Translations under genes and position numbers: made by a program
The notes under the pieces: generated by a model
Told to the model about the DNA's origin: nothing
What the model saw: only the letters and a program-made list of their open reading frames with translations
Database searches by the model: none
DNA from: Candidatus Fermentibacterota bacterium
Lineage (GTDB): Bacteria > Fermentibacterota > Fermentibacteria > Fermentibacterales > Fermentibacteraceae
Assembly (NCBI GenBank): GCA_963718745.1
Contig: OY970370.1
Coordinates: 140,821 to 204,820, forward strand
Direction: 5' to 3'
Length of the DNA stretch: 64,000 bases
Part shown: positions 8,920 to 22,813 of the stretch, piece after piece
Position numbering within the stretch: position 1 is the first letter of the stretch
Layout of the letters: every line of letters starts with the position of its first letter

Positions 8920-8921
8920 TG

Positions 8922-10848: not shown

Positions 10849-11890
10849 GAACCCCGCAGCCCTGACCTGCCCGCTTCCGCTGGAGGACGGACCAGGCGTG
10901 CTGCTGGCGCACGGCGGAGGCGGCACTCTCATGAGAAAGCTGATCGAGGAGTTCCTGGATGCCTTCGGCGCGCCACCTGCGCGTGACAGGCACGATGGAG
11001 CGGTCCTCGATCCCCGGGGCGGGCGCATCGCCTTCACGACCGACTCATTCGTGGTCAGACCACTCTTCTTCCCCGGAGGGGACATCGGCTCGCTTTCCGT
11101 GTTCGGCACGGTGAACGATCTGGCCATGTGCGGAGCCCGGCCTCTGTGGCTGAGCGTCGGGATGATCCTGGAAGAGGGCTTTCCGCTCGCGAAGCTGAGG
11201 GAGGTGACCGGATCCATCGCCTCATCAGCGGCTGCAGCCGGTGCGAGAGTGGTCACCGGGGACACGAAGGTAGTCGAGAAGGGGAAGTGCGACGGGATCT
11301 ACATAAACACGGCCGGGATAGGAGTGGTACCGAACGGTGTGGATGTGCGCCCGTCGAGGATAAGGCCGGGGGATGCGATAGTGGTGAACGGAGATCTCGG
11401 AAGGCATGGGATCACAATCATGACCCTGCGGGAGGGGATCTCCATCGAGGCGGGGATCGAGAGCGATCTCGCACCCCTGTCAGGCACCGTGGAGCGGATC
11501 GTACACGCCGGAATAGACATAAGGTGCATGCGCGATCTGACGAGGGGCGGCCTCGCCGCTGCTCTCTACGAGATCTCCTCCGATTCCGGACTGGACATGG
11601 ATGTCGACGAACCGTCGATTCCCGTCGACTCGAGGGTCCGGGCAGCATGCGAACTGCTGGGCTTCGACCCGGTGCATGTGGCAAACGAAGGCCGGTTCGT
11701 TGCCTTCGTACCGCCCGGCCAGGCCCGGGCTCTGATGGATGCCATGGCTGAACCGGGATCCCCGTTCCGTCCCTCCCTCATCGGCACCGTCAAGGAGGGA
11801 TCGGGGAGGGGCGTGATGCTGAGAAGTGCAATGGGAACCATGAGACCACTTTCGGTGTTGAGTGGTGAGCAGCTTCCGAGGATATGCTGA
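10832..11890 (+). CDS. hypE: Hydrogenase expression/formation protein HypE
   Basis: LAHGGGG, TTDSFVV, GTVNDLAM, DLTRGG, C-terminal LPRIC. Confidence 0.97.
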   Translation: MNHDPENPAALTCPLPLEDGPGVLLAHGGGGTLMRKLIEEFLDAFGAPPARDRHDGAVLDPRGGRIAFTTDSFVVRPLFFPGGDIGSLSVFGTVNDLAMCGARPLWLSVGMILEEGFPLAKLREVTGSIASSAAAAGARVVTGDTKVVEKGKCDGIYINTAGIGVVPNGVDVRPSRIRPGDAIVVNGDLGRHGITIMTLREGISIEAGIESDLAPLSGTVERIVHAGIDIRCMRDLTRGGLAAALYEISSDSGLDMDVDEPSIPVDSRVRAACELLGFDPVHVANEGRFVAFVPPGQARALMDAMAEPGSPFRPSLIGTVKEGSGRGVMLRSAMGTMRPLSVLSGEQLPRIC

Positions 11891-12023
11891 AACACTAGCC
11901 GGGAGCGCATCCATGAGTGTTCCGTCCGAACCGGCTCCGAAAAATTTTGTTCGTACAGCATCGACTGTGCGCTATTGGGTCTTCCGTTCCGATCACTTAT
12001 CATTAAGATAGGTATGCGAGCCG

Positions 12024-12050
12024 CCTTCCCATTGTGTGGAAGGTCTTTTT
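12024..12050 (+). terminator. Terminator-like hairpin with U-tract just upstream of the Roadblock/MglA operon
   Basis: CCTTCC-CATTGTGT-GGAAGG followed by TCTTTTT. Confidence 0.4.
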
Positions 12051-12077
12051 GTCACCCGGTATCTGGAGGTTGCTGAA

Positions 12078-12434
12078 GTGAGCGACACATCTCGTATCCT
12101 CAAGGAACTCGTAGAGGTCCAGGGCATCGAAGTGGCAGTCTGCGTCGGGCGTGATGGTTTCGTTATCGATGCCGCCTCCACCGGCAACGCTGATGCTGAT
12201 GCGATCGGTGCGATGGTCTCGACAGGCATGGGTTCCGCGGAAAGCGTCGGTCGCGAGCTGGGCGTCGGCGAGATGGCACAGGCCATGATGGAGTACGAGA
12301 AGGGCATCGTGGTTCTTTCGGCTCTGGGCACCGATGCCCTGCTGGCAGTCGTCGCCTCGAAGGACGCCAACCTCGGCAACGTCCGCCTTCAGGTGAAGCG
12401 TCGCACCATCGACCTGGAGAAGAGCCTCCGCTAG
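12078..12434 (+). CDS. Roadblock/LC7 domain protein (MglB/MglC-like)
   Basis: GTG after GGAGGT; LKELVEVQGIEVAVCVGRDGFVI..ADAIGAM..QAMMEYEKG..LLAVVASKDANLGNVRL. Confidence 0.88.
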   Translation: MSDTSRILKELVEVQGIEVAVCVGRDGFVIDAASTGNADADAIGAMVSTGMGSAESVGRELGVGEMAQAMMEYEKGIVVLSALGTDALLAVVASKDANLGNVRLQVKRRTIDLEKSLR

Positions 12435-12508
12435 ACAGACAGGCTCTTCGATCCCCGGGATCGCCGGTCTAGAAGGCCCGGACGAATTCGAAGGGAGTTC
12501 CAGGTCCT

Positions 12509-13018
12509 ATGAGAAGCGATCAGTCGAACCACAACAGCGGTATCCATTCCGAACTCGAAGAACTGATCAGATCCACCGGAGCGCTCATCAGCCTGCTGAT
12601 ATCGAGGGAAGGCGTCTGCCTGAGCCAGGCAGGGTCCCTGACCTCTCTCAACACGACTGCACTGGCCGCTCTGGTTGCGGGGATGTTCGCCGCCACGAAG
12701 GAAGTCGCCACCATAGTCGGAGAGAACCAGTTCTCCATCCTGCTGCAGCAGGGCGACAAGCGGCACATACACATCTCCCTCGTGGGCAAGCGTTCGATGA
12801 TGGTCATCGTCTTCGAGGACTACACCAGGATCGGCAGAGTGCGGATCGAGGCCAAGAAGGCCGGCGAGTCCATAGCCAGACTGCTCGACGCGCCGGTCGA
12901 GCGCGCTCCCGATGAGGATGGGGAGATCTACCTCCCCAGATTCAAGGAGTACGCCCTGAATCTTGTCGACAGGATCTTCAGGGTAGACGAAGAGGAAGAT
13001 GGCGCACATCAGCTCTGA
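12509..13018 (+). CDS. mglB: MglB-like Roadblock protein (GAP/partner of MglA)
   Basis: LLISREGVCL, TALAALVAGMFAATKEVATIVGENQFSILLQQG..IHIS..IGRVR; overlaps mglA. Confidence 0.85.
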   Translation: MRSDQSNHNSGIHSELEELIRSTGALISLLISREGVCLSQAGSLTSLNTTALAALVAGMFAATKEVATIVGENQFSILLQQGDKRHIHISLVGKRSMMVIVFEDYTRIGRVRIEAKKAGESIARLLDAPVERAPDEDGEIYLPRFKEYALNLVDRIFRVDEEEDGAHQL

Positions 13019-13580
13019 GAACCAGCAGATCGTCTTCAAACTCGTCTATTTCGGACCCGGGATGAGCGGCAAGACTACGAATCTCCACTGGATCCACGCG
13101 CAGCTCGCCGAGAAGTACAGAGGGGAGCTCCTGGTGCTCGATACCGAGAGGGAGAGGACTCTCTTCTTCGACTTCTTCCCGGTATCCCTGGGCAAGGTCG
13201 AGAACTACGCGATCAAGTTCCACCTCTATACGATCCCGGGGCAGATACACTACGAAGCGAGCAGGCGCCTCATCCTCGAAGGGGCTGACGGCGTGGCTTT
13301 CGTCGCAGACTCCCGCACCGGCCATCTCGAGAAGAACCTGCAGAGCTACAGGATGATGATCGACAACATGAGGGATCTCAGGATTCCCGTGGAGAACTTC
13401 CCGATCGTCCTGCAGTACAACAAGCGGGACCTCGTGCCGGTGCTCGAGCTGGGCAGCATCGAGAGGGAACTCGAACTGAGCGGGATCCCCGTCGTGGAAG
13501 CCGTTGCTTCCGAGGGCAGGGGAGTCATGCAGACACTGCGGATGCTCAGCATGGAAGTCATAAGGAAGTTTCAGATGTAG
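12999..13580 (+). CDS. mglA: MglA-family small Ras-like GTPase
   Basis: KLVYFGPGMSGKTTNL (G1), ERTLFFDF (switch I with intrinsic Arg), YTIPGQ (G3), GADGVAFVADS, QYNKRD (G4). Confidence 0.93.
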   Translation: MAHISSENQQIVFKLVYFGPGMSGKTTNLHWIHAQLAEKYRGELLVLDTERERTLFFDFFPVSLGKVENYAIKFHLYTIPGQIHYEASRRLILEGADGVAFVADSRTGHLEKNLQSYRMMIDNMRDLRIPVENFPIVLQYNKRDLVPVLELGSIERELELSGIPVVEAVASEGRGVMQTLRMLSMEVIRKFQM

Positions 13581-13625
13581 CTCCCCAATCGGCGCCACGC
13601 GAAGGCGCCAGACGTTTGGATTGGA

Positions 13626-14327
13626 ATGGCTCTCAAAGGAACGTTGAGCGATCTCGGGCTGGTCACTCTCCTCCAGTTCCCGAACTCCAGCCGGAGATCC
13701 GGTCTACTCACGATAACCGTCGACAACAGGCAGGCCAGCCTGTACTACGTCGACGGGAACCTCGTCCACGCAACGCTGGACAATCTTTCCGGCCAGCAGG
13801 TCCTGGTCGAGATGGTCGACTGGAAGGACGGCACCTTCTCCTTCGAGACCGGGATCACCACGGACGAGGTGACGATCAAGAAGGATCTCCACAGGCTCAT
13901 CATGTGGGCACTCAAGGAGCGCGACGAGATCAAGAAGGCGCAGTCGGAGGCCCAGCAGAACGCCCTCCAGCACACCGACGGCCATATCTTCGAGCAGGTG
14001 CTGAGGGACTTCGTGGCATCCTCCCCGAGCCACCTCTGGGCAAGCGTCATAGACTCGTCGGGCGTGATCATCGCAAGATCGGACCTGCCCAGCGACCTGT
14101 CGGAGATCGCCCCCGTGATCGTCAAATGCGTGTCCGCCTTCGTGAACTCATACCCTGGCGGAGCCCCCGACAGAGTGATCATCGAAGACGGATCCAGGAC
14201 CCTGGGTCTGATGTCCATCGACAAGAAGCTCGTCCTCCTTACCGTGGTGAAGCCGGACACGAAGATCGGCCTCATGTGCATCGCCACGAGCAGGCTTCTG
14301 GAAAGTGTGCGCAAGAAGGAGCAGTGA
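13626..14327 (+). CDS. DUF4388 (PatA-N-like) domain fused to a Roadblock-like domain
   Basis: MALKGTLSDLGLVTLLQF..SGLLTI..LYYVDGNLVHA..WKDGTFSF is DUF4388-type; C-terminus WASVIDSSGVIIA..DRVIIED..LVLLTVVKPDTKIGLM resembles Roadblock. Confidence 0.8.
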   Translation: MALKGTLSDLGLVTLLQFPNSSRRSGLLTITVDNRQASLYYVDGNLVHATLDNLSGQQVLVEMVDWKDGTFSFETGITTDEVTIKKDLHRLIMWALKERDEIKKAQSEAQQNALQHTDGHIFEQVLRDFVASSPSHLWASVIDSSGVIIARSDLPSDLSEIAPVIVKCVSAFVNSYPGGAPDRVIIEDGSRTLGLMSIDKKLVLLTVVKPDTKIGLMCIATSRLLESVRKKEQ

Positions 14328-15766
14328 TGCCGGGAGAATCTGAAATGGCGCGGATCCCGTTCGAGGAGTTCCTCAGGATCTGTACCGATTCAGGGCTGAT
14401 TGCAGAGGATACGTCCAGGCTGATACACAACTTCGCAAGGGCGCTCGGTGGCGTCGGCAGCGTTCCGCGGGTCTCCGGAGACCAGGCCGAGAGGCTCCAG
14501 AGTTTCGAGACCATCCTCTCGTTCGATTATCCCGAGAATCTGACCTTCGACAATTATGTGACCACCGAGGAGAACTACTACACCTGCGAGATCCTCCGCA
14601 CGGTCGCCTTCATCCCCAGGATCTGGAAGGCCATAGCACCAGTCTTCATCCATGCCCCGACAGGCCAGGGCAAGACGCACCTCCTCGCGGCCACGAAGAA
14701 CGCTACTTCCCGCAAGGCGCTCCTGATAAACACCCTCGACCTCGAAACCGAGCACCAGCATGCGAGGAGCGCCGGCAGGGAGCGCGAGCTCAGGGACTGG
14801 ATGATCCAGCACGACCTCATCCTCATCGACGACATCCAGTTCGCCCGGGGCAACCACGGCTTCGAGAAGTTCATCATCTCCGTGATGAACAGGATGCCGC
14901 GCGAATCCCATGGCCTGGTGATCTCGTCGGACGTCGAGCCTTCCAAGCTCTCCGGGCTCGATGCGTCACTCCTCTCGCGCCTGATGTCGGGCATCACGAT
15001 AAAGCTCGAGATCGTGAACAAGAAGGGCCGGACGGAGATACTGGAGCAGTTCTTCAATTATACGGGCATGAATCTCAACGACGACGTCGTGGACTACCTC
15101 GCCGACACCTTCACCAGCAACGTCAGGCAGCTCAAGGCTGCTGCGCGCATGGTCCTCGCCAGAGTTCTCGGAACCGGCAACGCGATGACGGTTGAATCCA
15201 CGAGGACCCTTCTCGGCTTCATGACCGAGGGCATCAAGACCGAGTCCTTCACGGAGGAGGAACTGCTCTCGACCGACAGCGATCGGTCCGAATACATCGT
15301 GGTGGAGGTCGAGGAGGAACCGGACAAGAAGCGGCGGGGTTCCGGAAAGCAGCCGTTCGTCATCGAACCGGTCCGAACTGATGCAAGGCGTTCTATTCCT
15401 GACTCGCCTGCGCCGGTCGAAGAGGCTCAGGCCCCGCGGGCTGCAAGAGAGGGTGTTCCGCAGACCGCAGCCAGGAGGGTGCCGGCAGCGGCACCGGCTC
15501 CTGTGCGGGAACCCGAACCCGTCGAGCAGCTGCCTGTGGTCCCTCCGCGTTCGGGGCGCAAGTCCGCGAGCAAGTACAGGGAGATGCTCGCCTCGGCCGA
15601 TACGGTCGAGAAGCAGACAGAGGCTCTCCGCATGGCTGTGAGCGAGAGGATAAGGCAGCTGACCGAGTCCGGGGCTGACAACATCGAGATAGGGAGGCTC
15701 CAGGTGACGCTGAAGTTCCTCGAGAGAGGCGACCTGGAATCTGCCATGCTCTCTTTGAAGACGTGA
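14327..15766 (+). CDS. DnaA/Hda-like AAA+ ATPase lacking domain IV, with Pro/Ala-rich linker and helical tail
   Basis: ATG overlaps upstream TGA; TFDNYV, PVFIHAPTGQGKTHLL (Walker A), LILIDDIQF (Walker B), LVISSD, LLSRL (Arg finger), SNVRQL (sensor II). Confidence 0.85.
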   Translation: MPGESEMARIPFEEFLRICTDSGLIAEDTSRLIHNFARALGGVGSVPRVSGDQAERLQSFETILSFDYPENLTFDNYVTTEENYYTCEILRTVAFIPRIWKAIAPVFIHAPTGQGKTHLLAATKNATSRKALLINTLDLETEHQHARSAGRERELRDWMIQHDLILIDDIQFARGNHGFEKFIISVMNRMPRESHGLVISSDVEPSKLSGLDASLLSRLMSGITIKLEIVNKKGRTEILEQFFNYTGMNLNDDVVDYLADTFTSNVRQLKAAARMVLARVLGTGNAMTVESTRTLLGFMTEGIKTESFTEEELLSTDSDRSEYIVVEVEEEPDKKRRGSGKQPFVIEPVRTDARRSIPDSPAPVEEAQAPRAAREGVPQTAARRVPAAAPAPVREPEPVEQLPVVPPRSGRKSASKYREMLASADTVEKQTEALRMAVSERIRQLTESGADNIEIGRLQVTLKFLERGDLESAMLSLKT

Positions 15767-15796
15767 TTCGAGAAAAGGTCCAGGATCGAAGCGAGG

Positions 15797-16321
15797 ATGG
15801 AAGGAGATCGTATGCTCAAGGCAGCCGACGCAGATCTCTCCAGATTCCACGGTGTCGCCTACTTGCTGGGAGCATTGGCGCACGCATCGGAATTGAATCT
15901 GGGGAAGAGCGCTCTCTCGATCTGCATGCTCGCCGGCAAGAAGTTCGGCAGAGAGGCAGTCGAAGGGGCGAAACAGACGGATGACCTGACCGAGGCTGTC
16001 GGGTTGTTGAACGATGCCCTGGCAAAACGCGGGATCGTATGGCAGTTCGAGCCTTTCAAGGGCGAATCGGACAACCTGATCCAGGACCGCGACGGCAAGA
16101 AGGTCATGAGACTCTCCTTCGGGACCTGCATGGTCCGCAATGCTCTCTTCAGGTATGCGCACGAGCAGAAGCAGTCCCTCTGCTACATGGCGCACGGCGT
16201 CTTCGCGGGGGCTATGGAGACGATCATGCCCGGGAAGGTCGTACATCTGGAGATCCTGCACGCAGGCCCGAACGGCTGCCTCAAGGAAATGATCGTGGAG
16301 GAGGCCAGGAATGAAGGCTAG
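15797..16321 (+). CDS. V4R-like (4-vinyl reductase/hydrocarbon-binding fold) protein
   Basis: AGKKFGRE helix; CMVR..LCYMAHGVFAGAM..AGPNGC Cys pattern; start may be ATG 15812 after AAGGAG. Confidence 0.7.
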   Translation: MEGDRMLKAADADLSRFHGVAYLLGALAHASELNLGKSALSICMLAGKKFGREAVEGAKQTDDLTEAVGLLNDALAKRGIVWQFEPFKGESDNLIQDRDGKKVMRLSFGTCMVRNALFRYAHEQKQSLCYMAHGVFAGAMETIMPGKVVHLEILHAGPNGCLKEMIVEEARNEG

Positions 16322-17231
16322 GGTTTCCACGGAATGGCTCTCAGGATGCTCCGGATGCCATGTGGCGATCGTCGATCTCCACGAGAAGCTGCTCAACCTC
16401 GTTGATGACGTCGAATTCGTACGGGTTCCCGTGCTCATGGACGAGAAGGGCTATCCCAAGGCGGATGTCGGGATCGTCGAAGGCGCGGTGAGGAGCGAGC
16501 ACGACAGGCACGCCCTCCTGAAGATGCGGGAGAGCTGCAAGAAGCTCCTTGCCTTCGGGACCTGCGCCGTCTACGGAGGCCCGTCGGGGCTGGGATGGCT
16601 CCACGGGAGCGACTCGATCCTTGCCAAGACTTACGGGGGCAATGTTTCCGACGCGAAGGGCTCGGTGGCTCCGACTCTCGCTCCGAAGCTGGAGGAGAGC
16701 GTCACCCCGATCGACGAAGTGGTAGACATAGACATGTATCTCGCGGGATGCCCGCCGCATCCCTTCTACATCGCCAGCGCGCTCCGGGAGCTGCTCGGCT
16801 CCGAGAGCATCCCCCTCACATCCAAGACCGTCTGCTCGGAGTGCGGCCGCAGGATGAAGAAGGCGGAGGGAGTGAAGCTCCACATGGGCGAAGTGACCGC
16901 CTCTGACCAGGAGACATGCTTCCTGAGCCAGGGCGTCGTGTGCCTCGGGAGCGTCACGCTGAACAGATGCAAGTCCCAGTGCCCCAACAAGGGCGTAGCC
17001 TGCGCGGGATGCGCCGGCCCGTCCATGGACCTGATGATCGAGCCGCATCTGGACATCAGAGGCCTGGTGGCGAAGAGGATGAGCTTGCTGACCGGCATCC
17101 CGGAGAAGGAGATAAGCGACTACATACAGCGTGATGCCAAGACCTTCTACGCTTATGCGCTCTCCTCCCCGGTGATGTACGGGAAACCCACGGTCGAGCT
17201 GCGCGAGTGGGCGGCGGAGGTCGGAAAGTGA
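16311..17231 (+). CDS. mvhG: Group 3c-like [NiFe]-hydrogenase small subunit (MvhG-like)
   Basis: WLSGCSGC, VEGAV, FGTCAVYGG, GCPP; retains medial/distal cluster Cys (TVCSEC, CFLSQGVVCLG, CKSQC, CAGCAGP); 306 aa. Confidence 0.85.
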   Translation: MKARVSTEWLSGCSGCHVAIVDLHEKLLNLVDDVEFVRVPVLMDEKGYPKADVGIVEGAVRSEHDRHALLKMRESCKKLLAFGTCAVYGGPSGLGWLHGSDSILAKTYGGNVSDAKGSVAPTLAPKLEESVTPIDEVVDIDMYLAGCPPHPFYIASALRELLGSESIPLTSKTVCSECGRRMKKAEGVKLHMGEVTASDQETCFLSQGVVCLGSVTLNRCKSQCPNKGVACAGCAGPSMDLMIEPHLDIRGLVAKRMSLLTGIPEKEISDYIQRDAKTFYAYALSSPVMYGKPTVELREWAAEVGK

Positions 17232-17268
17232 AGCATTCCTGTCCGATTCACTACCCGGGAGAGGCAAA

Positions 17269-18669
17269 ATGAAGAAAGTAATAGTGGATCCGGTCACCCG
17301 GATAGAAGGTCATGCACGGATCGTGCTCGACATCGACGATGCAGGCAAAGTGGGCAAGGGACACCTCCAGGTCCTCGAGATAAGGGGTTTCGAGAAGCTC
17401 CTCGAGAACATGGAGCTGTTCAAGATGCCCCTCATCACCGGCAGGATCTGCGGTGTGTGCCCGGCGGCCCATCACGTGGCGTCCGTGGTCGCAATCGAGA
17501 CCGGACTGGGCGCGAAGATCCCGAAGGACGCAGCCCTGCTCCGCGAACTCATGTACATGGGCCACATCCTCCACTCCCATGCCCTGAGCACTTTCGTGCT
17601 GACCGGTCCGGACGTGTTCGGCGGGATAGGTGCGAAGCCGGTTGACAGGAACGTCTTCGCCCTTCTCAAGCTCGATCCGGAGACGATCAAGAAGGTGCTG
17701 CGGCTCCGAAGCATAGGCCAGAAGACGGTCGAGATAGTCGGCGGCAGGGGAGTGCATCCGATCACCTCCATCCCCGGCGGTCTGGCAAGCCGGCCCACGA
17801 AGGAGGAGATCGCCTCCATCGCACAGTGGGGCGACGAGGCTCTGGGCATTCTCGAGGCCATAGCGCCGGTCTTCGGGAAGAAGCTGGCCGAACTCGAAGA
17901 CCTGCGCGAGCCCGCCGTGCTCGATTTCATGCCGGCGGCCCTCAGCGACAAGGGTGCCGTCGCCTTCTGGAACGCACCCTGCGTGGTGAAGAACCGCGAT
18001 GGCAGCGAGGAGAGATCCTTCCCTGCCGAGAAGTACGCGGACAACTTCGTGGAGCACGTTGCGGACGACTCCTACATGAAGTCCGTCACCCTGAGCGGGA
18101 AGCCGGAAGGAAACTTCTTCGTCGGCCCTCTGGCCAGGTGCCTGGTCAACGACAGGTTCTCCTCGCCGAAGGCGACCGCCCTGCTCGGAGAGTTCCGCTC
18201 GAAGCCCAGGAACTCCGCGCTCGACAACATGGAGGCCAGGCTTGTGGAGGCCGTTCACTCGGCCGAGCGCCTCAGCATGATAGCCGGCTCGGAACTCGGT
18301 GACGGCCCGCTCCGGGTCGAACTCCACCCCAAGGCCGGCAGGTACATCGGAATGGTCGAGGCTCCTCGCGGGATACTGATCCATGACTTCACAGCGGACG
18401 ACGCGGGCCGGATCACCTCTGCCAACCTGATAGTGGCGACGCAGAACAACTACGATGCGATCGACAGGGCCATCACCGGCCTCGCAGGCTACCTGGCTCC
18501 CGGCGGAGACGACGAGAAGCTGATGAACGGCGTCGAGTTCGCCCTGAGGTGCTTCGATCCCTGCCTGGCATGCGCCACTCACGCAGCCGGGAGGATGCCC
18601 GTCGAGATAGAGATCAGGCGCGAAGGCACCACGGTGAGGACTCTGTCCAGGGGGGAGGTCCGGTCGTGA
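17269..18669 (+). CDS. mvhA: Group 3c-like [NiFe]-hydrogenase large subunit (MvhA-like)
   Basis: PVTRIEGH, RGFE, L1 RICGVC, HSHAL, GPD, VHP..PGG, EAPRG, L2 DPCLACATH followed by a cleavable C-terminal extension. Confidence 0.92.
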   Translation: MKKVIVDPVTRIEGHARIVLDIDDAGKVGKGHLQVLEIRGFEKLLENMELFKMPLITGRICGVCPAAHHVASVVAIETGLGAKIPKDAALLRELMYMGHILHSHALSTFVLTGPDVFGGIGAKPVDRNVFALLKLDPETIKKVLRLRSIGQKTVEIVGGRGVHPITSIPGGLASRPTKEEIASIAQWGDEALGILEAIAPVFGKKLAELEDLREPAVLDFMPAALSDKGAVAFWNAPCVVKNRDGSEERSFPAEKYADNFVEHVADDSYMKSVTLSGKPEGNFFVGPLARCLVNDRFSSPKATALLGEFRSKPRNSALDNMEARLVEAVHSAERLSMIAGSELGDGPLRVELHPKAGRYIGMVEAPRGILIHDFTADDAGRITSANLIVATQNNYDAIDRAITGLAGYLAPGGDDEKLMNGVEFALRCFDPCLACATHAAGRMPVEIEIRREGTTVRTLSRGEVRS

Positions 18670-19391
18670 TAGAGATCAGGGTCGATGAGGACGCCTGCGT
18701 CGGCTGCACCCTCTGCGTCGACATCTGTCCGACCAAGGTGTTCGAGTTCGACGAGAAGAAGGGCAAGCCTGTCGTGGCAAAGCCCAAGGAGTGCTTCGGC
18801 TGCCTGAGCTGCTCCGAGATCTGCCCCGCCACGGCGATCACCCACGAGGGCATCACCCACTCCGAGAACCACTACTACGATCCGGGATCGATCCGGATCT
18901 CGCAGAAGTCGACTGGCGTGTCTCCCGAGATCAACTTCCCGCAGGATCCGGGCTCCCGCAAGAGCGCGGTGGGCGACCTCGGGATCCGGCTCCTCTCGGT
19001 GGCCTCCGTCTTCAGGCAGACGCTCGGTGGAAGCCTTCCCGCGGTGGGAACCATGGCCGGCCGCACGCTCGCCACACAGCTCCCGCGGTACCACGTGCCG
19101 GCGGACTTCGCCGAAGCCCTCCGGATGGTCGTCGATCAGCTGGCCCCCACATGGGATCTGAAAGCCGAGTACGACGGGGCGGAGAGCCTCAAGATCAAGA
19201 CCGGGAGCTGCTTCATCCGCGACCTCTGCAAGAAGGAGGGCATCCCCCTGGGAGGCGACCTCTGCATACTGTTCTACAACTACCTCGCGGGTTACCTGGG
19301 CAAGCTCTCGGGAGTCAGGCTGAAGCTCGAGAACACTGCCCCCGGAGACACCTCCTGCACATACGACATCAAGGTGTTCAGGAAGGAGTGA
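18666..19391 (+). CDS. 2[4Fe-4S] ferredoxin fused to a V4R-like domain
   Basis: GTG overlaps the large-subunit stop; CVGCTLCVDICP and CFGCLSCSEICP; C-terminal CFIRDLC..LCILFYNYLAGYL..GDTSC. Confidence 0.85.
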   Translation: MIEIRVDEDACVGCTLCVDICPTKVFEFDEKKGKPVVAKPKECFGCLSCSEICPATAITHEGITHSENHYYDPGSIRISQKSTGVSPEINFPQDPGSRKSAVGDLGIRLLSVASVFRQTLGGSLPAVGTMAGRTLATQLPRYHVPADFAEALRMVVDQLAPTWDLKAEYDGAESLKIKTGSCFIRDLCKKEGIPLGGDLCILFYNYLAGYLGKLSGVRLKLENTAPGDTSCTYDIKVFRKE

Positions 19392-19861
19392 GCCCGGATC
19401 CGGTTGCCAGGCTCGCGGTCGTAGGCATAGGGAACACCCTGGCGGGAGACGACGGAGCCGGGATAAGGGCAGTTGAGATGCTGAGAGACAGGCTGGGGGA
19501 TGCCGCTGGTCATGGCATCCTCCTCCTGACTCTCGAGGGCGACCTGCTCTCGGTCGCCGACATGCTTGAAAGCGCAGACAGCTTCATCTTCCTCGACGCG
19601 GTAGCCGGCACCCCGCCCGGACGGATCGTGAGATCCAGCTCCGCCTGCAGGGCTTTCGCCCCCTCGTTCCACCAGACCGACATCGGCACGCTCATGGCGA
19701 GGCTCAGCACGCTGGGGCTGCGCGAGCCGTTCCCCACATGGGAGATACGGGGTGTGACTATCGATCCGCCCACCTTCCTGGGGGAGGGGCTCTCACCGGA
19801 GGTCGAGGAGGCGGTCGACAGGCTGGTGGAAGACCTCGCCGCGGAGATCCGGGGATCGTGA
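19388..19861 (+). CDS. Hydrogenase maturation endopeptidase (HyaD/HybD/HycI family)
   Basis: VVGIGNTLAGDDGAG, IFLDAV, SFH, GEGLSPEV. Confidence 0.92.
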   Translation: MSPDPVARLAVVGIGNTLAGDDGAGIRAVEMLRDRLGDAAGHGILLLTLEGDLLSVADMLESADSFIFLDAVAGTPPGRIVRSSSACRAFAPSFHQTDIGTLMARLSTLGLREPFPTWEIRGVTIDPPTFLGEGLSPEVEEAVDRLVEDLAAEIRGS

Positions 19862-22131
19862 CAGTCCGACCGCCGGAGACCGCCGGCGGGGCGGCCCGGG
19901 ATTCGACCCGCCGCGTGTCCCTGACGGTCAAGGGTATCGTCCAGGGCGTCGGCTTCAGGCCCTTCCTCTTCAGGCTCGCGAGCAGACTCTGCATCACAGG
20001 CTGGTGCGTGAACAGCGGAGGAGAGGTCCGTCTCGAGATCCAGTCCACGGCCGGGGCGATAGGCGCCTTCCTCGAGCTGCTCGTCTCGGAGCTTCCACCG
20101 GCGGCATCGATCGAGTCGGTGACCACCTCGGAGATACCGGCTGTCTCTTCCGAGCGAGCCTTCGTGATCCTGCCCAGCGAGGAGAGGGCGCTCGAGCCCG
20201 GTGGCCTCTCGCCGGATCTCGCCCCGTGTCCCGCATGCCTTGCCGAGATGCGGGATCCATCTTCCAGACGCAGGGGATACGCCCTGCTTTCCTGCTCGGA
20301 CTGCGGGCCACGCTATTCCGTCAGTACCGGGCTCCCGTACGACCGCGCACTTACGACCATGGCCCCATACCCGCTCTGCTCCGCATGCGAGAGGGAGTAC
20401 CTGGATCCTTCCGACAGGAGGTTCCATGCCGAACCCCTCGCCTGTCCCGTCTGCGGTCCCCCCCTGAGGCTGGTGACCGCGGGAGGGGGCTCACGTGAGG
20501 GTGACCCTGTTGCCGATGCTGCCGGCATCCTGCATCGCGGGGGAGTCGTAGCGGTGAAGGGGGCGGGAGGATACCTCCTGGCTGCAAACGCCTGTGACGA
20601 CGCAGTACTGGAGAGGGTCAGGAGATCCAAGAACCGCCCGTGGAAACCCCTGGCCGTGATGGTCGGAGACCTTGCCTCGGCAGCTGGCCTGGTCCTGCTG
20701 GACGGTGCGTCAGCCGAGGCACTCTGCTCTCCAGCCGCACCCATCGTCATAGCACGGGCCAGACCGGGCAGCCGCCTCTCCCGCCTGGTGGCTCCCGGCA
20801 TGTCGACGATCGGGGTGATGCTCCCCTCGACCCCGCTCCAGCAGATGCTGCTGGATGCCTTCGACGGTCCTCTTGTCATGACTTCCGGCAACGACGCGGA
20901 GGATCCCATCATCACCGAAGACTCGGACGCCCTGTCCTCCCTGGACGCGGATTCCTTCATCATGCACGACCGGAGGATAGAGGGGGCGCTGGATGACAGT
21001 GTCGTCATACCGCCGATAATCGTCAGGCGCTCGCGGGGTTTCGTCCCGAGGATCGTGAAGGCGGCGTTCAACACCCCGGTACCCATCGTGGCGGCTGGAG
21101 CGGATCAGAGCGCGACATTCGCGTTGATGCGGAACGACAGGCTCCTCCCGGGGAGGCCGATCGGCGATCTGGACGGCCCTGCAGCCGCCCGGACATGGCG
21201 GGTCGAGCTGGACAGGATGCTATCGCAGTACGGGGTCGACAGGGCGGTAGTAGCCGCCGACCTCCACCCGGGTTACCGTTCCAGGGCGCTTGCAGAGGAA
21301 CTGGCGGGCTCACGGGGATGGAAGGTCTTCGTGGTCCAGCACCATTTCGCGCACATGTGCTCCGTGATGCTGGAACACGGCCTCGACCCCTCCGCGAAAG
21401 CCGTCGGCCTGATACTGGACGGAACCGGCTACGGTCCCGACGGATCGATCTGGGGTTGCGAGATGCTCGAGGGCGGCCTCGAAGGCTACAGGAGAGCCGG
21501 CCATCTGAAGCAGGTGCCCATGCCAGGAGGAGAGGCGGCGGTGCGCGAACCCAGACGCATGGCGGCCTCGCACCTGAGGTCGGCAGGCCTGGTGCACGAC
21601 TGGCCGGCGCTCGACCAGGTCATGGACTCGCGGAGCCTCTCGCCGCTGACCTCGAGCGCGGGGCGGCTTTTCGATGCCGCCGCATATGTCCTGGGTATAT
21701 GCCCGCCGCGTGTCTCCTGCCAGGCGGAGGCGGCAATGCTGCTGGAGTCCGCCGCCGATCCGGAGGAGACCCTCTCCTTCGACATGGATGTGGACTCCTC
21801 GTTCGTGATCGATCCTTCGAGGGCTTTCGAGCGTCTTCTGGACGGGAGCATCCCTGTGCCGGCGAGGGCCGCCGGATTCCACAACGGTCTGGCCGGAGCC
21901 CTATGCAGGGCCGCGACCGGAATCCTGGATGGAAGGGATCTGCCCGTGGTGCTTGCAGGAGGCTGCTGGGCCAACACTCTCCTCCTGCGGGCGGTCCGTT
22001 CCGGCCTGGAGGGCGCGGGTCTGGATGTGATGTTCGGCAGGGAACTGCCGGTGGGCGACGGAGCGGTGGCCGCAGGCCAGGCGGCGGCGGTCGCTGCGAT
22101 GCTCCCCGTTGGACGGGAGCGGGCTGTCTGA
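19858..22131 (+). CDS. hypF: Carbamoyltransferase HypF
   Basis: GIVQGVGFRPF acylphosphatase domain, zinc fingers CPAC/CSDCGPR/CSAC/CPVCGP, KPLAVM, DLHPGY, QHHFAH, DGTGYG, TSSAGRLFD. Confidence 0.96.
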   Translation: MTVRPPETAGGAARDSTRRVSLTVKGIVQGVGFRPFLFRLASRLCITGWCVNSGGEVRLEIQSTAGAIGAFLELLVSELPPAASIESVTTSEIPAVSSERAFVILPSEERALEPGGLSPDLAPCPACLAEMRDPSSRRRGYALLSCSDCGPRYSVSTGLPYDRALTTMAPYPLCSACEREYLDPSDRRFHAEPLACPVCGPPLRLVTAGGGSREGDPVADAAGILHRGGVVAVKGAGGYLLAANACDDAVLERVRRSKNRPWKPLAVMVGDLASAAGLVLLDGASAEALCSPAAPIVIARARPGSRLSRLVAPGMSTIGVMLPSTPLQQMLLDAFDGPLVMTSGNDAEDPIITEDSDALSSLDADSFIMHDRRIEGALDDSVVIPPIIVRRSRGFVPRIVKAAFNTPVPIVAAGADQSATFALMRNDRLLPGRPIGDLDGPAAARTWRVELDRMLSQYGVDRAVVAADLHPGYRSRALAEELAGSRGWKVFVVQHHFAHMCSVMLEHGLDPSAKAVGLILDGTGYGPDGSIWGCEMLEGGLEGYRRAGHLKQVPMPGGEAAVREPRRMAASHLRSAGLVHDWPALDQVMDSRSLSPLTSSAGRLFDAAAYVLGICPPRVSCQAEAAMLLESAADPEETLSFDMDVDSSFVIDPSRAFERLLDGSIPVPARAAGFHNGLAGALCRAATGILDGRDLPVVLAGGCWANTLLLRAVRSGLEGAGLDVMFGRELPVGDGAVAAGQAAAVAAMLPVGRERAV

Positions 22132-22150
22132 TGAAGGGAAGGGTTTTCGC

Positions 22151-22813
22151 GTGATTCGAAGGATGAACACAGGCGTGATGAGGAGGAACGAGGAGGAGGC
22201 AGCCGGGAACAGGGCGCTGCTGGATGGTCTCGAGATCCTGGGGATCAACATCATGAGCTCGCCCGGCTCCGGGAAGACCACGCTCCTGGAGAGCCTGGGC
22301 CGTATCCTCGGATCGGAGATGGCCGTCATCGAGGGCGACGTGAAGACCAGGAGGGACGCGGAGAGGCTGGAGGAGATCGGGATCAAGGCCTGGCAGATCG
22401 AGACAGGCGGCGCCTGTCATCTGGACGCCCTTTCCGTAGGGAGCGCCATTTCGAGCCTGGGACTCAGGAAGGGCGTACAGAAGTTCCTCGTCATAGAGAA
22501 TGTCGGCAACCTGATCTGCCCCAGCTCCTATGATCTGGGCGAACGCCTCAGGATCGGCCTCCTGTCGCTTCCGGAGGGTGACGACAAGGTCCTCAAGTAC
22601 CCGTCGCTCTTCAGCCGGATCGACCTCCTGCTCCTGACGAAAACGGATCTTGCCCCATACCTCGATTTCGACCTGGGGAGGGCCGAGGCCGAGTGCAGAA
22701 GCATCAACCCGGGACTCGTGACGATCGCTGTCAGCTCTGCAACCGGCGCGGGTGTGGACGAGGTTGTCTCCCTGTTCAGGAAGCGCTACGGAGAGGTCTG
22801 GGGAGGCGCCTGA
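22151..22813 (+). CDS. hypB: Hydrogenase nickel incorporation GTPase HypB (no His-rich N-terminus)
   Basis: SSPGSGKTTLLE, IEGD, TGGACHLDA, IENVGNLICP, TKTDL; start GTG 22151 or ATG 22163. Confidence 0.95.
   Translation: MIRRMNTGVMRRNEEEAAGNRALLDGLEILGINIMSSPGSGKTTLLESLGRILGSEMAVIEGDVKTRRDAERLEEIGIKAWQIETGGACHLDALSVGSAISSLGLRKGVQKFLVIENVGNLICPSSYDLGERLRIGLLSLPEGDDKVLKYPSLFSRIDLLLLTKTDLAPYLDFDLGRAEAECRSINPGLVTIAVSSATGAGVDEVVSLFRKRYGEVWGGA

What the first reader, a model, noticed from the sequence alone, without database searches (positions are those of the whole stretch)
12078..19861. Candidate H2/redox-sensing signalling system: NiFe hydrogenase in one operon with V4R domains, a Roadblock/MglA GTPase module and a DnaA-like ATPase
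Seen: ten co-directional genes with overlapping or short junctions (mglB/mglA, DUF4388/ATPase TGATG, V4R/small subunit, large subunit/Fd-V4R GTGA, Fd-V4R/protease GTGA), in the order Roadblock, MglB, MglA, DUF4388-Roadblock, DnaA-like, V4R, MvhG-like, MvhA-like, ferredoxin-V4R, protease, all nested between hypCDE and hypF-hypB. Known: group 3c hydrogenases normally pair with MvhD and HdrABC, and the recognised sensory NiFe hydrogenases (group 2b/2c) pair with kinases or cyclic-di-GMP enzymes; MglA/MglB is characterised for polarity and motility. Inference: here a group 3 enzyme lacks a metabolic electron acceptor in its locus and is instead surrounded by ligand-binding and switch proteins. H2 oxidation could reduce the ferredoxin-V4R, which would regulate the Roadblock/MglA switch and the AAA+ output. 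I know of no described system of this composition.
Basis: partly seen in the sequence, partly recalled or inferred. Interest (0 to 1): 0.92.

Follow-up and report, generated by a model that had tools for sequence, protein, structure and literature searches.

The report
Hydrogenase wired to Roadblock/GTPase switch proteins
A nickel-iron hydrogenase that always travels with two ligand-sensor-like (V4R/Bet3-fold) proteins and a Roadblock protein, and here also with a Ras-like GTPase switch and a DnaA-like ATPase, is most likely a previously undescribed hydrogen or redox sensing device, not an energy enzyme.

Summary
Ten co-directional, tightly packed genes lie at window 12078-19861, between hypCDE and hypF-hypB. 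In order they are Roadblock, MglB-like, MglA, PATAN/DUF4388, a DnaA-like AAA+ lacking the DNA-binding domain, a V4R-like protein, the [NiFe] small and large subunits, a ferredoxin fused to a V4R-like domain, and the maturation protease.

The organism belongs to Candidatus Fermentibacteria. The arrangement is conserved. The cassette V4R-HydS-HydL-FdV4R-protease was found in all 66 loci fetched from at least six phyla. A Roadblock gene lies within 4.5 kb in 33 of 33 loci outside Fermentibacteria. The neighbours vary but are signalling or positioning proteins: MglA/MglB, PATAN, a REC-PATAN-Roadblock fusion with a histidine kinase, a Ser/Thr kinase, a ParA/MinD-like ATPase, and MotAB. No MvhD, Hdr or NuoF gene lies in any locus.

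The large subunit forms its own clade, apart from Hdr-linked and NuoF-linked group 3 paralogs of the same genomes. The active-site and FeS ligands are intact. MglA and the DnaA-like gene are lineage-specific additions.

My best reading, at about 50%, is a sensory hydrogenase that couples H2/redox state through V4R and Roadblock proteins to NTPase switches. The mechanism is inferred and untested. My literature searches found no description of such a system.

The parts
9470..11890 (+). hypC (about 9470-9745), hypD (9742-10848) and hypE (10832-11890) maturation genes
   Evidence: TIGR00074 63.8 bits (cut-off 48), TIGR00075 460 bits, TIGR02124 402 bits. A promoter-like site lies at 9359-9388, but site counts there are not above chance.
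12023..12054 (+). Hairpin plus T-run in the 187-bp hypE-Roadblock spacer. It may be a terminator or the boundary of the ten-gene unit.
   Evidence: terminator-like; the count in the region is not above the shuffles. Sequence read.
12078..12434 (+). Roadblock/LC7 protein (118 aa from the GTG at 12078). Ortholog of the Roadblock gene found next to the cassette in every phylum sampled.
   Evidence: PF03259 E 1e-16. 50-60% identical to the Acidobacteriota and Geobacter copies. GGAGG lies 8 nt upstream of 12078.
12509..13018 (+). MglB-like Roadblock protein (169 aa)
   Evidence: PF03259 5.5e-11. NF052242 MglB 5.2e-22, 78.6 bits, below its cut-off of 200.
12999..13580 (+). MglA-family Ras-like GTPase (193 aa). 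It is the third MglA paralog of this genome.
   Evidence: PDB 3t12 T. thermophilus MglA 6.1e-57 and M. xanthus MglA 3e-50. Two other paralogs lie at C1:228524 and C1:236675.
13626..14327 (+). PATAN/DUF4388 protein (233 aa). The C-terminal half is unassigned.
   Evidence: PF14332 2.5e-18 on residues 4-102. C-terminal half against Roadblock: hhalign E 0.029, inconclusive.
14327..15766 (+). DnaA/Hda-like AAA+ ATPase without DNA-binding domain IV. It has its own N-terminal domain, an acidic linker and a conserved C-terminal helical domain.
   Evidence: PF00308 5.3e-23. TIGR00362 147 bits (cut-off 343.9), covering model positions 105-339 of 437. The Walker A, Walker B, SRL Arg and NVRQLKAA motifs are invariant in 14 orthologs.
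15797..16321 (+). V4R/Bet3-fold protein (174 aa), translationally coupled to the small subunit
   Evidence: Model pLDDT 76. Foldseek hits Bet3/TRAPPC3 and MopR/PoxR, E 7e-5 to 1e-3, TM 0.5-0.59. C111, C129, C161, H122, H133 and E141 are invariant in 26 sequences from several phyla.
16311..17231 (+). [NiFe] hydrogenase small subunit (306 aa) with 12 conserved Cys, consistent with three FeS clusters
   Evidence: PF01058 2.5e-26. VhuG 208.7 bits, below its cut-off of 450. 12 Cys columns are conserved in at least 95% of 65 sequences.
17269..18669 (+). [NiFe] hydrogenase large subunit (466 aa), group 3, own clade
   Evidence: PF00374. PDB 7t2r_D 5e-83, MvhA 5odc_F 1.2e-82, 5xf9_D 8e-70. RxCGxC in 52 of 53 and DPCxxCxxH in 53 of 53 family members. 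Tree.
18666..19391 (+). 2x[4Fe-4S] ferredoxin fused to a V4R-like domain (241 aa)
   Evidence: Fer4 families. The 8 ferredoxin Cys plus C182, C200 and C231 are invariant in 24 sequences. hhalign to the V4R-like protein gives E 4.5e-4 with the three Cys aligned. ATC_hydrolase 1.4e-4, below its cut-off. A low-confidence model hits H-NOX, MopR and Bet3 folds.
19388..19861 (+). Hydrogenase maturation endopeptidase (157 aa)
   Evidence: TIGR00072 5.1e-20, 71.9 bits over its cut-off of 47.45.
19738..22813 (+). hypF (ORF from 19738, domain from about 19900, to 22131) and hypB (22109-22813)
   Evidence: TIGR00143 617.5 bits; TIGR00073 223.4 bits.

Best explanation
The locus encodes a sensory (regulatory) [NiFe] hydrogenase of a distinct group 3 lineage.

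Proposed mechanism:
- A catalytically competent HydS/HydL dimer oxidises or equilibrates with H2.
- It passes electrons through three FeS clusters in HydS to the two [4Fe-4S] clusters of the ferredoxin-V4R subunit.
- The redox state is read by the two V4R/Bet3-fold domains: the stand-alone V4R protein, made together with HydS, and the C-terminal domain of Fd-V4R.
- These domains contact the dedicated Roadblock protein. Roadblock is the usual partner platform of small NTPase switches.
- In Fermentibacteria the switch is a dedicated MglA paralog with its MglB, a PATAN protein and a DnaA/Hda-like AAA+ ATPase as the likely effector.
- In other phyla the same core is plugged into other modules: a REC-PATAN-Roadblock fusion with a histidine kinase, a ParA/MinD-like ATPase, a Ser/Thr kinase, or MotAB.

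Shown: gene content, order, conservation, intact catalytic and cluster ligands, the V4R/Bet3 fold, a separate clade, and the absence of metabolic partners in the loci.

Inferred: electron flow into Fd-V4R, V4R-Roadblock contact, direction of signalling, and the output.
For: 1. The core is conserved. V4R, HydS, HydL, FdV4R and protease are colinear in every one of 66 loci fetched with the V4R profile, wherever the flank suffices: HydS 66/66, HydL 59/59, FdX 58/58, protease 55/56. The phyla, by record titles, are Fermentibacterota, Acidobacteriota, Thermodesulfobacteriota (Geobacter, Pelobacter, Desulfuromonadales), Fibrobacterota, Eisenbacteria and Methylomirabilota.

2. Roadblock lies within 4.5 kb upstream in 33 of 33 loci outside Fermentibacteria. 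It is 50-60% identical across phyla.

3. The neighbours are signalling proteins:
- L097: HisKA/HATPase kinase, then a single 381-aa REC-DUF4388-Roadblock protein, directly before V4R.
- L095: a dCache-PAS-GAF hybrid kinase.
- L101: a Ser/Thr kinase and two Roadblock genes.
- L080: a ParA/MinD-like ATPase and two DUF4388 genes.
- L100: MotA-MotB.

4. No MvhD, HdrA flavin part, HdrB or NuoF is in any of the 16 + 66 loci. The only hits are short ferredoxin-domain matches to the Fd-V4R gene itself. All-against-all clustering of their ORFs found no further universally shared family.

5. Phyletic pattern in 41 Fermentibacteria genomes:
- The DnaA-like gene and the third MglA paralog occur in exactly the same 23 genomes.
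- The V4R gene occurs in 19 of those 23 and in 0 of the other 18.

6. MvhD does not track the hydrogenase. It is found in 16 of 19 V4R-positive genomes and 17 of 22 V4R-negative genomes. Three V4R-positive genomes (92-93% complete) have no MvhD hit.

7. The enzyme looks functional. RxCGxC is present in 52/53 and DPCxxCxxH in 53/53, with a 23-32 aa C-terminal extension. HydS has 12 conserved Cys.

8. The large subunits form a clade (SH-aLRT 96, stem 1.26). It stands apart from the HdrA-linked and NuoF-linked paralogs of the same genomes.

9. The genome has other means of H2 metabolism: three [FeFe] hydrogenase genes and one Complex1_49kDa locus.

10. The V4R-like protein has the fold of the MopR/PoxR ligand sensors and of Bet3, a subunit of the TRAPP GTPase exchange factor.
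Against: - There is no experimental or structural evidence for any contact. The single complex prediction (V4R + Fd-V4R C-domain against Roadblock) gave no verdict and cannot count either way.
- The known sensory [NiFe] hydrogenases, as I recall them, lack the C-terminal extension and a dedicated protease. This enzyme has both.
- The hyp maturation genes flank it in one family, as they would for an abundant metabolic enzyme.
- A full five-cluster electron path ending in a surface ferredoxin domain is equally what a metabolic enzyme donating to a soluble carrier would have.
- MglA/MglB are missing from most loci outside Fermentibacteria (MglA present in 2 of 26). The GTPase link is therefore not universal.
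- In four Sabulitectum-type loci (L070-L073) the cassette has neither Roadblock nor switch genes nearby.
- In three loci of three genomes (L038-L040) the switch module stands without the hydrogenase. In two of those genomes (G028, G036), and also in G003 and G040, no V4R gene was found at all.
- The loci were collected through the V4R gene. 'The hydrogenase clade always has V4R' was therefore not tested from the hydrogenase side.
- Kin genomes are not independent.
Confidence: 0.5

Rival explanations
1. This is a metabolic cytoplasmic hydrogenase with novel subunits. Fd-V4R is its electron output, and the V4R domains bind a hydrophobic small-molecule acceptor or anchor the enzyme. The Roadblock/PATAN/MglA (or ParA-like, REC) proteins then act on the hydrogenase, controlling its activity, assembly or polar/membrane position. 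In this reading the hydrogenase is the target of the switch and not its sensor.
For: - The catalytic site is complete, there are three FeS clusters in HydS and two in Fd-V4R, and there is a dedicated protease.
- hyp genes flank the cluster in family f1 and in L032/L047.
- V4R-type domains bind hydrophobic ligands in MopR/PoxR, and Bet3 carries palmitate in the top-hit entry 6aq3 (titles).
- MglA/MglB and ParA/MinD-type proteins are positioning systems (passages; passages).
- It is the only PF00374 hydrogenase in the genome.
Against: - No acceptor-side oxidoreductase is conserved in any locus.
- The partners vary between phyla in the way that input and output modules of signalling systems do.
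- The cassette is dispensable. It is in 19 of 41 related genomes, which all keep other hydrogenase types at least in the own genome.
- The V4R protein (79% mean column identity within the order) is more conserved than the large subunit (about 60-65% identity to the same loci). That fits a specific protein-protein interface.
Confidence: 0.3
2. This is an ordinary group 3c Mvh-type hydrogenase. It works with the MvhD/HdrA-like complex encoded 2.1 Mb away, as flavin-based electron bifurcation or its reverse. The neighbouring switch genes are unrelated.
For: - The best curated models are VhuA and VhuG.
- MvhA (5odc_F) is among the two best PDB matches.
- The genome has one MvhD, inside a cluster of HdrA-like (1010 aa), MvhD, FeS proteins, an NAD_binding_1 protein, an HdrC-like protein and HdrB (CCG).
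Against: - Scores are far below the curated cut-offs: 273.6 against 800 and 208.7 against 450.
- No MvhD or Hdr is in any of 82 loci.
- MvhD is found in 17 of 22 relatives that lack the hydrogenase. It is not found in 3 of 19 that have it.
- The large subunit is outside the clade that holds the one HdrA-linked paralog sampled (one 3c reference only).
- The MvhD cluster carries its own NAD-binding module and looks self-sufficient, of the Flx-Hdr type. That name is recalled.
Confidence: 0.07
3. The adjacency has no functional meaning. The hydrogenase cassette and the switch genes are merely neighbours carried together by horizontal transfer.
For: - The modules can be separated (L038-L040, L070-L073, G032).
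- The large-subunit tree does not follow phyla neatly. Geobacter rows fall in two places, and L091 groups with Eisenbacteria. That suggests transfer.
Against: - Roadblock is present in 33 of 33 non-Fermentibacteria loci despite different surrounding genes.
- There is a REC-PATAN-Roadblock fusion immediately upstream of V4R.
- There is an exact phyletic match of the MglA paralog and the DnaA-like gene, and the V4R gene was never found without them in 41 genomes.
- Start and stop codons overlap within the cluster.
Confidence: 0.08

Closest known systems
Regulatory [NiFe] hydrogenase HoxBC/HupUV with kinase HoxJ/HupT (group 2b). From my own knowledge; not retrieved here.
   Same: A complete [NiFe] dimer is used as an H2 sensor and is bound to a signalling protein. 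In two loci here (L097, L095) a histidine kinase sits next to the cassette.
   Different: - The large subunit here is group 3 by all sequence matches.
- It keeps a C-terminal extension and a protease.
- It carries V4R-fold and ferredoxin subunits.
- Its constant partner is a Roadblock protein and not a kinase.
Mvh/Vhu F420-non-reducing hydrogenase, group 3c (MvhAGD-HdrABC; PDB 5odc)
   Same: It is among the closest solved relatives of the large subunit (1.2e-82) and is the best curated model for both subunits. The small subunit is of the three-cluster type.
   Different: - There is no MvhD or Hdr in the locus or in any related locus.
- Scores are far below the curated cut-offs.
- It falls in a separate clade.
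- Fd-V4R and V4R take the place of MvhD.
NiFe-HydABCSL of Acetomicrobium mobile (PDB 7t2r) and NAD-reducing Hox (5xf9), the NuoF-linked group 3 enzymes
   Same: 7t2r_D is the top PDB match (5e-83).
   Different: No NuoE/NuoF/HoxU-type genes are in the loci. The NuoF-linked paralogs of the same genomes are only 33-36% identical and fall in another clade.
MglA/MglB polarity switch with PATAN-domain neighbours (Wuichet and Sogaard-Andersen 2014, PMC4316618, passages read; Makarova 2006 cited there)
   Same: A true MglA (6e-57 to Thermus MglA) overlaps an MglB-like gene and is followed by a PATAN protein. The MglA/MglB-PATAN neighbourhood is in print.
   Different: It is a third, dedicated paralog. 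It is present only where the DnaA-like gene is, and it is tied to a hydrogenase. The words 'hydrogen' and 'DnaA' do not occur in that paper's main text.
Actinobacterial conservon CvnA-D: histidine kinase, Roadblock, unknown protein, MglA-like GTPase (described in PMC4316618, passage read)
   Same: The logic is the same: a sensor protein coupled to a Roadblock protein and an MglA-family GTPase in one operon.
   Different: The sensor here would be a hydrogenase with V4R subunits and not a membrane kinase. The gene families and taxa differ.
TRAPP complex (Bet3-family plus longin/sedlin subunits; exchange factor for Rab1/Ypt1). V4R as ancestor of Bet3: Podar 2008, PMC2253512.
   Same: The V4R-like protein's best structural matches are Bet3/TRAPPC3 chains. 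The locus combines two V4R/Bet3-fold domains, Roadblock proteins and a Ras-like GTPase.
   Different: - There is no sequence membership. PF04051 is not hit and identity is 12-16%.
- No contact has been shown.
- TRAPP has no redox enzyme.
- The terms hydrogenase, Roadblock and GTPase do not occur in Podar 2008.
MopR/PoxR/DmpR phenol-sensing domains (V4R type; PDB 5kbe, 5fru, 6iy8)
   Same: Same fold (E 2e-4, TM 0.5-0.55). The conserved Cys/His/Glu set is reminiscent of their zinc site, which I recall and did not test.
   Different: The proteins here are stand-alone or fused to ferredoxin. They are not fused to a sigma-54 activator, and no ligand is known.

Membership tests
[NiFe] hydrogenase, group 3 (cytosolic) | Large subunit with N-terminal RxCGxC and C-terminal DPCxxCxxH nickel-iron ligand motifs (motif wording recalled) | tested here: met
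   Both motifs are in the window protein. They are in 52/53 and 53/53 family ORFs respectively. PF00374 93.3 bits against a cut-off of 25.8.
[NiFe] hydrogenase, group 3 (cytosolic) | Closest relatives are group 3 enzymes, not groups 1, 2 or 4 | tested here: met
   The top five PDB matches are 7t2r, 5odc, 9sfi, 9sw2 and 5xf9, at 5e-83 to 8e-70. Periplasmic group 1 enzymes score 1e-32 or worse.
Group 3c Mvh/Vhu hydrogenase | MvhD subunit and HdrABC partner encoded with, or tracking, the hydrogenase | tested here: not met
   No MvhD, HdrA or HdrB in 82 loci. The own MvhD is 2.1 Mb away. MvhD is present in 17 of 22 relatives without the cassette and not found in 3 of 19 with it.
Group 3c Mvh/Vhu hydrogenase | Passes the curated VhuA/VhuG models; groups with Hdr-linked enzymes in a tree | tested here: not met
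   273.6 bits against 800 and 208.7 against 450. It is outside the clade holding the one HdrA-linked paralog (quick tree, one 3c reference, so this is weak).
Sensory [NiFe] hydrogenase group 2b/2c | Group 2 large subunit; no C-terminal extension or protease; kinase or cyclic-di-GMP partner (recalled) | tested here: not met
   It has group 3 affinities, a 23-32 aa extension and a protease. Kinases adjoin only some loci.
MglA family GTPase | Full-length similarity to characterised MglA, including the P-loop and the TxPGQ switch II region (motif names recalled) | tested here: met
   6.1e-57 over residues 2-188 to T. thermophilus MglA. The alignment shows GPGMSGKTT and YTIPGQ matched. The Pfam Arf/Ras models are below their cut-offs.
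Roadblock/LC7 (MglB-type) | PF03259 domain above the gathering score | tested here: met
   60.9 and 42.5 bits against a cut-off of 23 for the two genes. The C-terminal half of the DUF4388 protein is inconclusive.
V4R domain (PF02830) | Pfam model above the gathering score | tested here: not met
   14 bits, E 0.055, against a cut-off of 31 for the stand-alone protein. There is no PF02830 hit for Fd-V4R, only ATC_hydrolase at 23.2 bits against 28.1.
V4R / Bet3 / H-NOX-like fold | Structural match to solved V4R-type sensor domains and Bet3 | tested here: met
   Foldseek E 7e-5 to 1e-3, TM 0.5-0.59 for the V4R-like model with pLDDT 76. The match is weaker for Fd-V4R, whose model has pLDDT 58. The Atlas leads agree.
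DnaA replication initiator | AAA+ domain III plus DNA-binding domain IV; passes the equivalog model | tested here: not met
   Domain III is present (PF00308 82.4 bits). There is no domain IV hit. TIGR00362 scores 147 bits against 343.9 and covers only model positions 105-339 of 437. A second DnaA-family gene is found in all 41 genomes.
PATAN/DUF4388 | PF14332 above the gathering score | tested here: met
   66.7 bits against 25. The family occurs only once in the genome.

The most novel reading that the evidence does not exclude
The hydrogenase is the redox-sensing head of a prokaryotic TRAPP-like machine. Two V4R/Bet3-fold domains and a Roadblock (longin-like) protein would form, on the hydrogenase, an H2-gated exchange factor or GAP platform for a Ras-like GTPase. 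In other phyla the target would be a ParA-like ATPase or a REC-PATAN protein.

In Fermentibacteria the output, through the DnaA/Hda-like AAA+ protein, would tie replication or the cell cycle to ambient H2. Ambient H2 is the thermodynamic brake on fermentation.

This would be the first hydrogenase coupled to a small GTPase. It would also be a bacterial precedent for the Bet3 + longin + GTPase logic of eukaryotic trafficking.
Probability: 0.12. Interest if true: 0.95.

Novelty: new variant of a known kind. Interest (0 to 1): 0.8.

Why it matters
Only two kinds of H2-sensing hydrogenase are recognised: [NiFe] group 2b/2c and [FeFe] group C. Both signal through kinases, phosphatases or cyclic-di-GMP enzymes.

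A group 3 enzyme with V4R-fold subunits and a dedicated Roadblock partner would be a third, mechanistically different solution. It would be the first link between H2 or redox state and Ras-like or ParA-like NTPase switches.

It is widespread in uncultured anaerobes of digesters, sediments and soils: 528 protein clusters of the V4R subunit, none carrying a functional name other than 'hypothetical' or 'predicted hydrocarbon binding protein'. It could therefore explain how fermenters and metal reducers tune their behaviour to H2.

It also gives a testable function to three poorly understood domains at once (bacterial V4R, PATAN, stand-alone Roadblock). And it places Bet3-like, Roadblock and small-GTPase components together in bacteria.

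Practically, metagenome surveys that label these genes 'group 3c' or 'NAD-coupled' hydrogenases may be mis-assigning H2 fluxes.

Tried and rejected
- Complex prediction of V4R + Fd-V4R C-domain against Roadblock. The result was 'no answer' (score 0.22, mark 0.32, controls not run). It is no evidence either way.
- PDB sequence-profile search with the V4R alignment: nothing meaningful.
- Search for longer, fused forms of the V4R protein: none at E 1e-5. The tool calls this weak evidence.
- Search with the N-terminal 75 residues of the DnaA-like protein: only 4 close relatives. This is limited by word sharing.
- hhalign of the DUF4388 protein's C-terminal half against Roadblock: E 0.029, probability 1.7%. 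Not accepted.
- Promoter and terminator scan: site counts are not above the shuffles. I only note the hairpin before the Roadblock gene.
- RNA runs. Only Logan contigs were available, at small word shares.
  - In one metatranscriptome, a relative about 92% identical gives a 2504-nt contig covering window 15152-17654. That spans the end of the DnaA-like gene, V4R, HydS and the start of HydL.
  - Another run holds short 98-99% identical contigs on six of the ten genes.
  - Contigs cannot show a single transcript, and DNA carry-over is not excluded. I count this as a weak hint of expression only. Parts without cover mean nothing.
- First tree. One reference row (L129) was cut one base out of frame by my own error, giving a branch of length 10. 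It was rebuilt correctly. Only the quick tree finished.
- ORF clustering is single-linkage and polluted by antisense ORFs of high-GC DNA. I use it only for the statement that no further universal family appeared.
- I considered and dropped the idea that the DnaA-like protein lacks its arginine finger. The SRL arginine is invariant.
- Supplementary files of the papers were not consulted. Supplementary table S2 of PMC4316618 (MglA neighbourhoods) and the hydrogenase tables of the Hyd24-12 paper (PMC5030696) could bear on prior mention of this locus.

Full report
WHAT IS THERE

The window is high-GC DNA (about 0.60-0.66) from a 2.52-Mb single-contig genome. Between 12078 and 19861 lie ten + strand genes, with overlaps or spacers of at most 74 bp.

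Profile searches name eight of them directly:
- A Roadblock/LC7 protein.
- A second, MglB-like Roadblock protein.
- A small GTPase.
- A DUF4388/PATAN protein.
- A DnaA-type AAA+ protein.
- A [NiFe] hydrogenase small subunit.
- A [NiFe] hydrogenase large subunit.
- A hydrogenase maturation protease.

The ninth gene has an N-terminal 2x[4Fe-4S] ferredoxin domain. The sixth has no family hit at the default threshold.

The GTPase is a true MglA. It scores 6e-57 against Thermus thermophilus MglA over its whole length.

The DnaA-like protein keeps Walker A, Walker B, the SRL arginine and the sensor II motif in all 14 orthologs aligned. It has no domain IV. Instead it carries a private N-terminal domain, an acidic linker and a conserved C-terminal helical domain.

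hypC, D and E lie upstream, and hypF and B downstream. All pass their curated cut-offs.

A GGAGG lies 8 nt before it, and the longer ORF starts inside a hairpin with a T-run at 12023-12054.

THE TWO 'V4R' PROTEINS

Pfam does not confirm them. PF02830 gives E 0.055, and the Fd-fusion's C-domain hits only ATC_hydrolase below its cut-off. Other evidence does support the assignment:
- An AlphaFold model of the stand-alone protein (pLDDT 76) matches Bet3/TRAPPC3 chains and the phenol-sensing domains of MopR, PoxR and DmpR. E is 7e-5 to 1e-3 and TM is 0.5-0.59.
- A profile-profile comparison aligns the C-terminal 127 residues of the ferredoxin fusion to this protein. E is 4.5e-4 and probability 33%, with few sequences. 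Its three invariant cysteines fall on the three invariant cysteines of the other protein.
- The fusion's own model is poor (pLDDT 58). Its matches (H-NOX, YslB, BcsD, MopR, Bet3) are only consistent with the same superfold.

I therefore accept 'V4R/Bet3-fold' for both. I do not accept membership of the Pfam family. The claimed Roadblock half of the DUF4388 protein could not be confirmed.

WHO CARRIES IT

Record titles of related contigs place the genome in Candidatus Fermentibacteria, also called Hyd24-12.

I fetched 16 loci from relatives through the DnaA-like gene:
- 8 have the identical ten-gene order.
- 2 have the Roadblock gene moved next to V4R.
- 2 have a 4-kb insertion with a duplicated Roadblock/MglB set.
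- 3 have the switch module alone within the fetched 14-20 kb.
- 1 is a short contig.

Across 41 genomes of the order:
- The DnaA-like gene and a third MglA paralog occur in exactly the same 23 genomes.
- The V4R gene occurs in 19 of these 23 and in none of the other 18.
- Two further MglA paralogs are present in all 41.

So this is a dedicated, dispensable module.

BEYOND THE PHYLUM

A scan of one genome per species with the V4R profile returned 66 loci. By their titles, half are from Acidobacteriota (Thermoanaerobaculia, Holophaga, Bryobacterales, Solibacteraceae), Geobacter/Pelobacter/Desulfuromonadales, Chitinispirillaceae/Fibrobacteraceae, Eisenbacteria and Methylomirabilota.

Wherever the contig is long enough, V4R is followed by:
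- HydS, in 66/66.
- HydL, in 59/59.
- Fd-V4R, in 58/58.
- The protease, in 55/56.

Outside Fermentibacteria:
- A Roadblock gene lies within 4.5 kb upstream in 33 of 33 loci. It is on the opposite strand in L086, L102, L105 and L106.
- DUF4388 is present in 20 of 29.
- MglA is present in 2 of 26.
- The DnaA-like gene is present in 0 of 30.

In four Sabulitectum-type loci (L070-L073) neither Roadblock nor switch genes are nearby.

The Roadblock protein is 50-60% identical between phyla. The V4R protein is 55-70% identical.

The V4R family has 528 clusters in the large protein collection. The listed ones are named only 'hypothetical protein' or 'predicted hydrocarbon binding protein'.

WHAT SURROUNDS THE CORE ELSEWHERE

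- Desulfuromonadales MAG (L097): a histidine kinase, followed by one 381-aa protein made of a receiver domain, DUF4388 and Roadblock. This sits immediately before V4R.
- Geobacter MAG (L095): a dCache-PAS-GAF hybrid kinase.
- Chitinispirillaceae MAG (L101): a Ser/Thr kinase, two unknown proteins and two Roadblock genes.
- Thermoanaerobaculia-type locus (L080): a ParA/MinD-like ATPase and two DUF4388 genes. A family of that size recurs in 13 loci in the clustering.
- Holophaga MAG (L100): MotA-MotB.

I searched with MvhD, the HdrA-like protein and HdrB of the own genome, an HdrA, and a NuoF. None found a partner gene in any of the 82 loci. The only hits were short ferredoxin-domain matches to the Fd-V4R gene itself.

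THE ENZYME

- The nickel-iron ligand motifs are present in 52/53 and 53/53 full-length large subunits. A 23-32 residue C-terminal extension follows.
- Twelve cysteine columns are conserved in at least 95% of 65 small subunits. The enzyme should be active and should carry three clusters.
- Its best solved relatives are the NiFe-HydABCSL large subunit (5e-83), MvhA (1.2e-82) and an NAD-reducing enzyme (8e-70).
- The curated VhuA/VhuG models are missed by a wide margin.
- Five genomes that carry the cassette also carry paralogs 33-36% identical. By their neighbours these are NuoF-linked in four cases and HdrA-linked in one. A further paralog, 32% identical, sits next to a Fer4_22 protein, as I recall for sulfhydrogenase-type (3b) enzymes.
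- In a quick maximum-likelihood tree the 16 V4R-linked sequences form one clade (SH-aLRT 96, stem 1.26) outside those paralogs.
- With one Hdr-linked reference and no bootstrap, this shows separation from those paralogs. It does not establish a new formal subgroup.

THE HDR QUESTION

The genome has one MvhD. It sits in an HdrA-like/MvhD/FeS/NAD-binding/HdrC-like/HdrB cluster 2.1 Mb away.

Among the 41 genomes:
- MvhD is found in 16 of 19 with the cassette.
- It is found in 17 of 22 without it.
- Three genomes (92-93% complete) have the cassette and no MvhD hit.

That pattern argues against an obligate Mvh-Hdr partnership.

The genome also holds three [FeFe] hydrogenase genes and one Complex1_49kDa locus. 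H2 metabolism therefore does not depend on this enzyme.

READING

The constant part is a competent hydrogenase, a ferredoxin wire ending in a V4R domain, a second V4R protein made with the small subunit, and a Roadblock protein. The variable part is a set of interchangeable signalling or positioning modules.

This is the anatomy of a sensor with swappable outputs. I put about 50% on a sensory hydrogenase that reports H2/redox state through V4R-Roadblock contacts. The recipient would be MglA here, and REC-PATAN, ParA-like or kinase modules elsewhere.

The main rival (30%) inverts the arrow: a metabolic enzyme with new subunits whose activity or position is controlled by these switches. Points in favour of the rival:
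- It has a protease and a C-terminal extension.
- hyp genes flank it.
- The full electron path would equally suit a metabolic enzyme.

Ordinary Mvh-Hdr coupling (7%) and meaningless adjacency (8%) are unlikely.

No contact, electron transfer or output has been shown. The only complex prediction I ran returned no verdict.

PRIOR KNOWLEDGE

These full-text searches found no paper that links a hydrogenase with these proteins:
- V4R + hydrogenase.
- MglA + hydrogenase + Roadblock.
- Roadblock + NiFe.
- MglA + NiFe.
- DUF4388 + hydrogenase.
- 'sensory hydrogenase' + NiFe + 'group 3'.

I read listings for all of these, and passages of the following papers:
- PMC4316618 describes MglA/MglB-PATAN neighbourhoods and the conservon, and does not contain the word 'hydrogen'.
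- PMC2253512 derives Bet3 from V4R, and does not mention hydrogenase, Roadblock or GTPase.
- PMC5030696, the Hyd24-12 genome paper, speaks only of an NAD-coupled cytosolic hydrogenase or a sulfhydrogenase.
- bioRxiv 10.1101/2021.08.23.457424 proposes a Chloroflexi 'group 3E' without accessory genes. I did not test whether that is the same clade.
- A 2026 preprint notes ParA domains displacing MglA in MglB-centred systems, without hydrogenases.
- I also read passages of PMC2614490, PMC11291895 and PMC9599518, which added nothing on this point.

I could not see supplements.

VERDICT

Novelty: a new variant of a known kind, namely a sensory hydrogenase with an unprecedented partner set. Interest is high, because it is widespread, unnamed and directly testable.

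Noticed in passing
window 46814-46908 (-): TPP riboswitch, 57.6 bits against a gathering score of 54.3. It is the only Rfam match in the window.
   Followed up: no
own genome C1:228524-229084 and C1:236675-237226 (about 24 and 32 kb past the window's end): Two further MglA paralogs, 46% and 41% identical to the one in the locus. They lie about 8-10 kb apart and are present in all 41 Fermentibacteria genomes searched. The Pfam Roadblock model nevertheless finds only the two Roadblock genes of the hydrogenase locus in this genome. Their MglB partners, if any, must be divergent.
   Followed up: partly
L002 (own genome C1:2260000-2279999), about 7608-15300: A cluster of HdrA-like (1010 aa), MvhD, two FeS proteins, an NAD_binding_1/DHODB-FeS protein, an HdrC-like protein and HdrB (CCG). 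It is preceded by two large FG-GAP repeat proteins. It looks like a self-contained NAD-linked Hdr system.
   Followed up: partly
own genome C1:120823-122806 (about 18-20 kb before the window) and C1:2344222: Three [FeFe] hydrogenase catalytic-domain genes, two of them adjacent. One Complex1_49kDa locus lies at C1:1583526-1584236.
   Followed up: no
L035 and L036 (relatives, genus g9), about 11000-15000: A 4-kb insertion splits the cluster, and the Roadblock gene is duplicated. L035 also has a second MglB copy; in L036 no second MglB hit passed my filters. The order is Robl-MglB-DUF4388-DnaA-like, then the insertion, then a second Robl (with MglB in L035), then MglA-V4R-Hyd. The inserted genes were not examined.
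   Followed up: no
L101 6245-8753 and L103 7640-8743 (Fibrobacterota loci): Two conserved proteins without any Pfam hit (469 and 361 aa). They lie between a Ser/Thr kinase and the Roadblock genes, upstream of the cassette.
   Followed up: no
L068, L108, L109 and L072 (related loci): The hydrogenase genes give several split tblastn pieces in these loci. They may be frameshifted or decaying copies, or there may be assembly errors.
   Followed up: no
window 22786-23532 (-): A CutC-like copper homeostasis gene lies convergent with hypB. It scores 131 bits, below the equivalog cut-off of 311.
   Followed up: no
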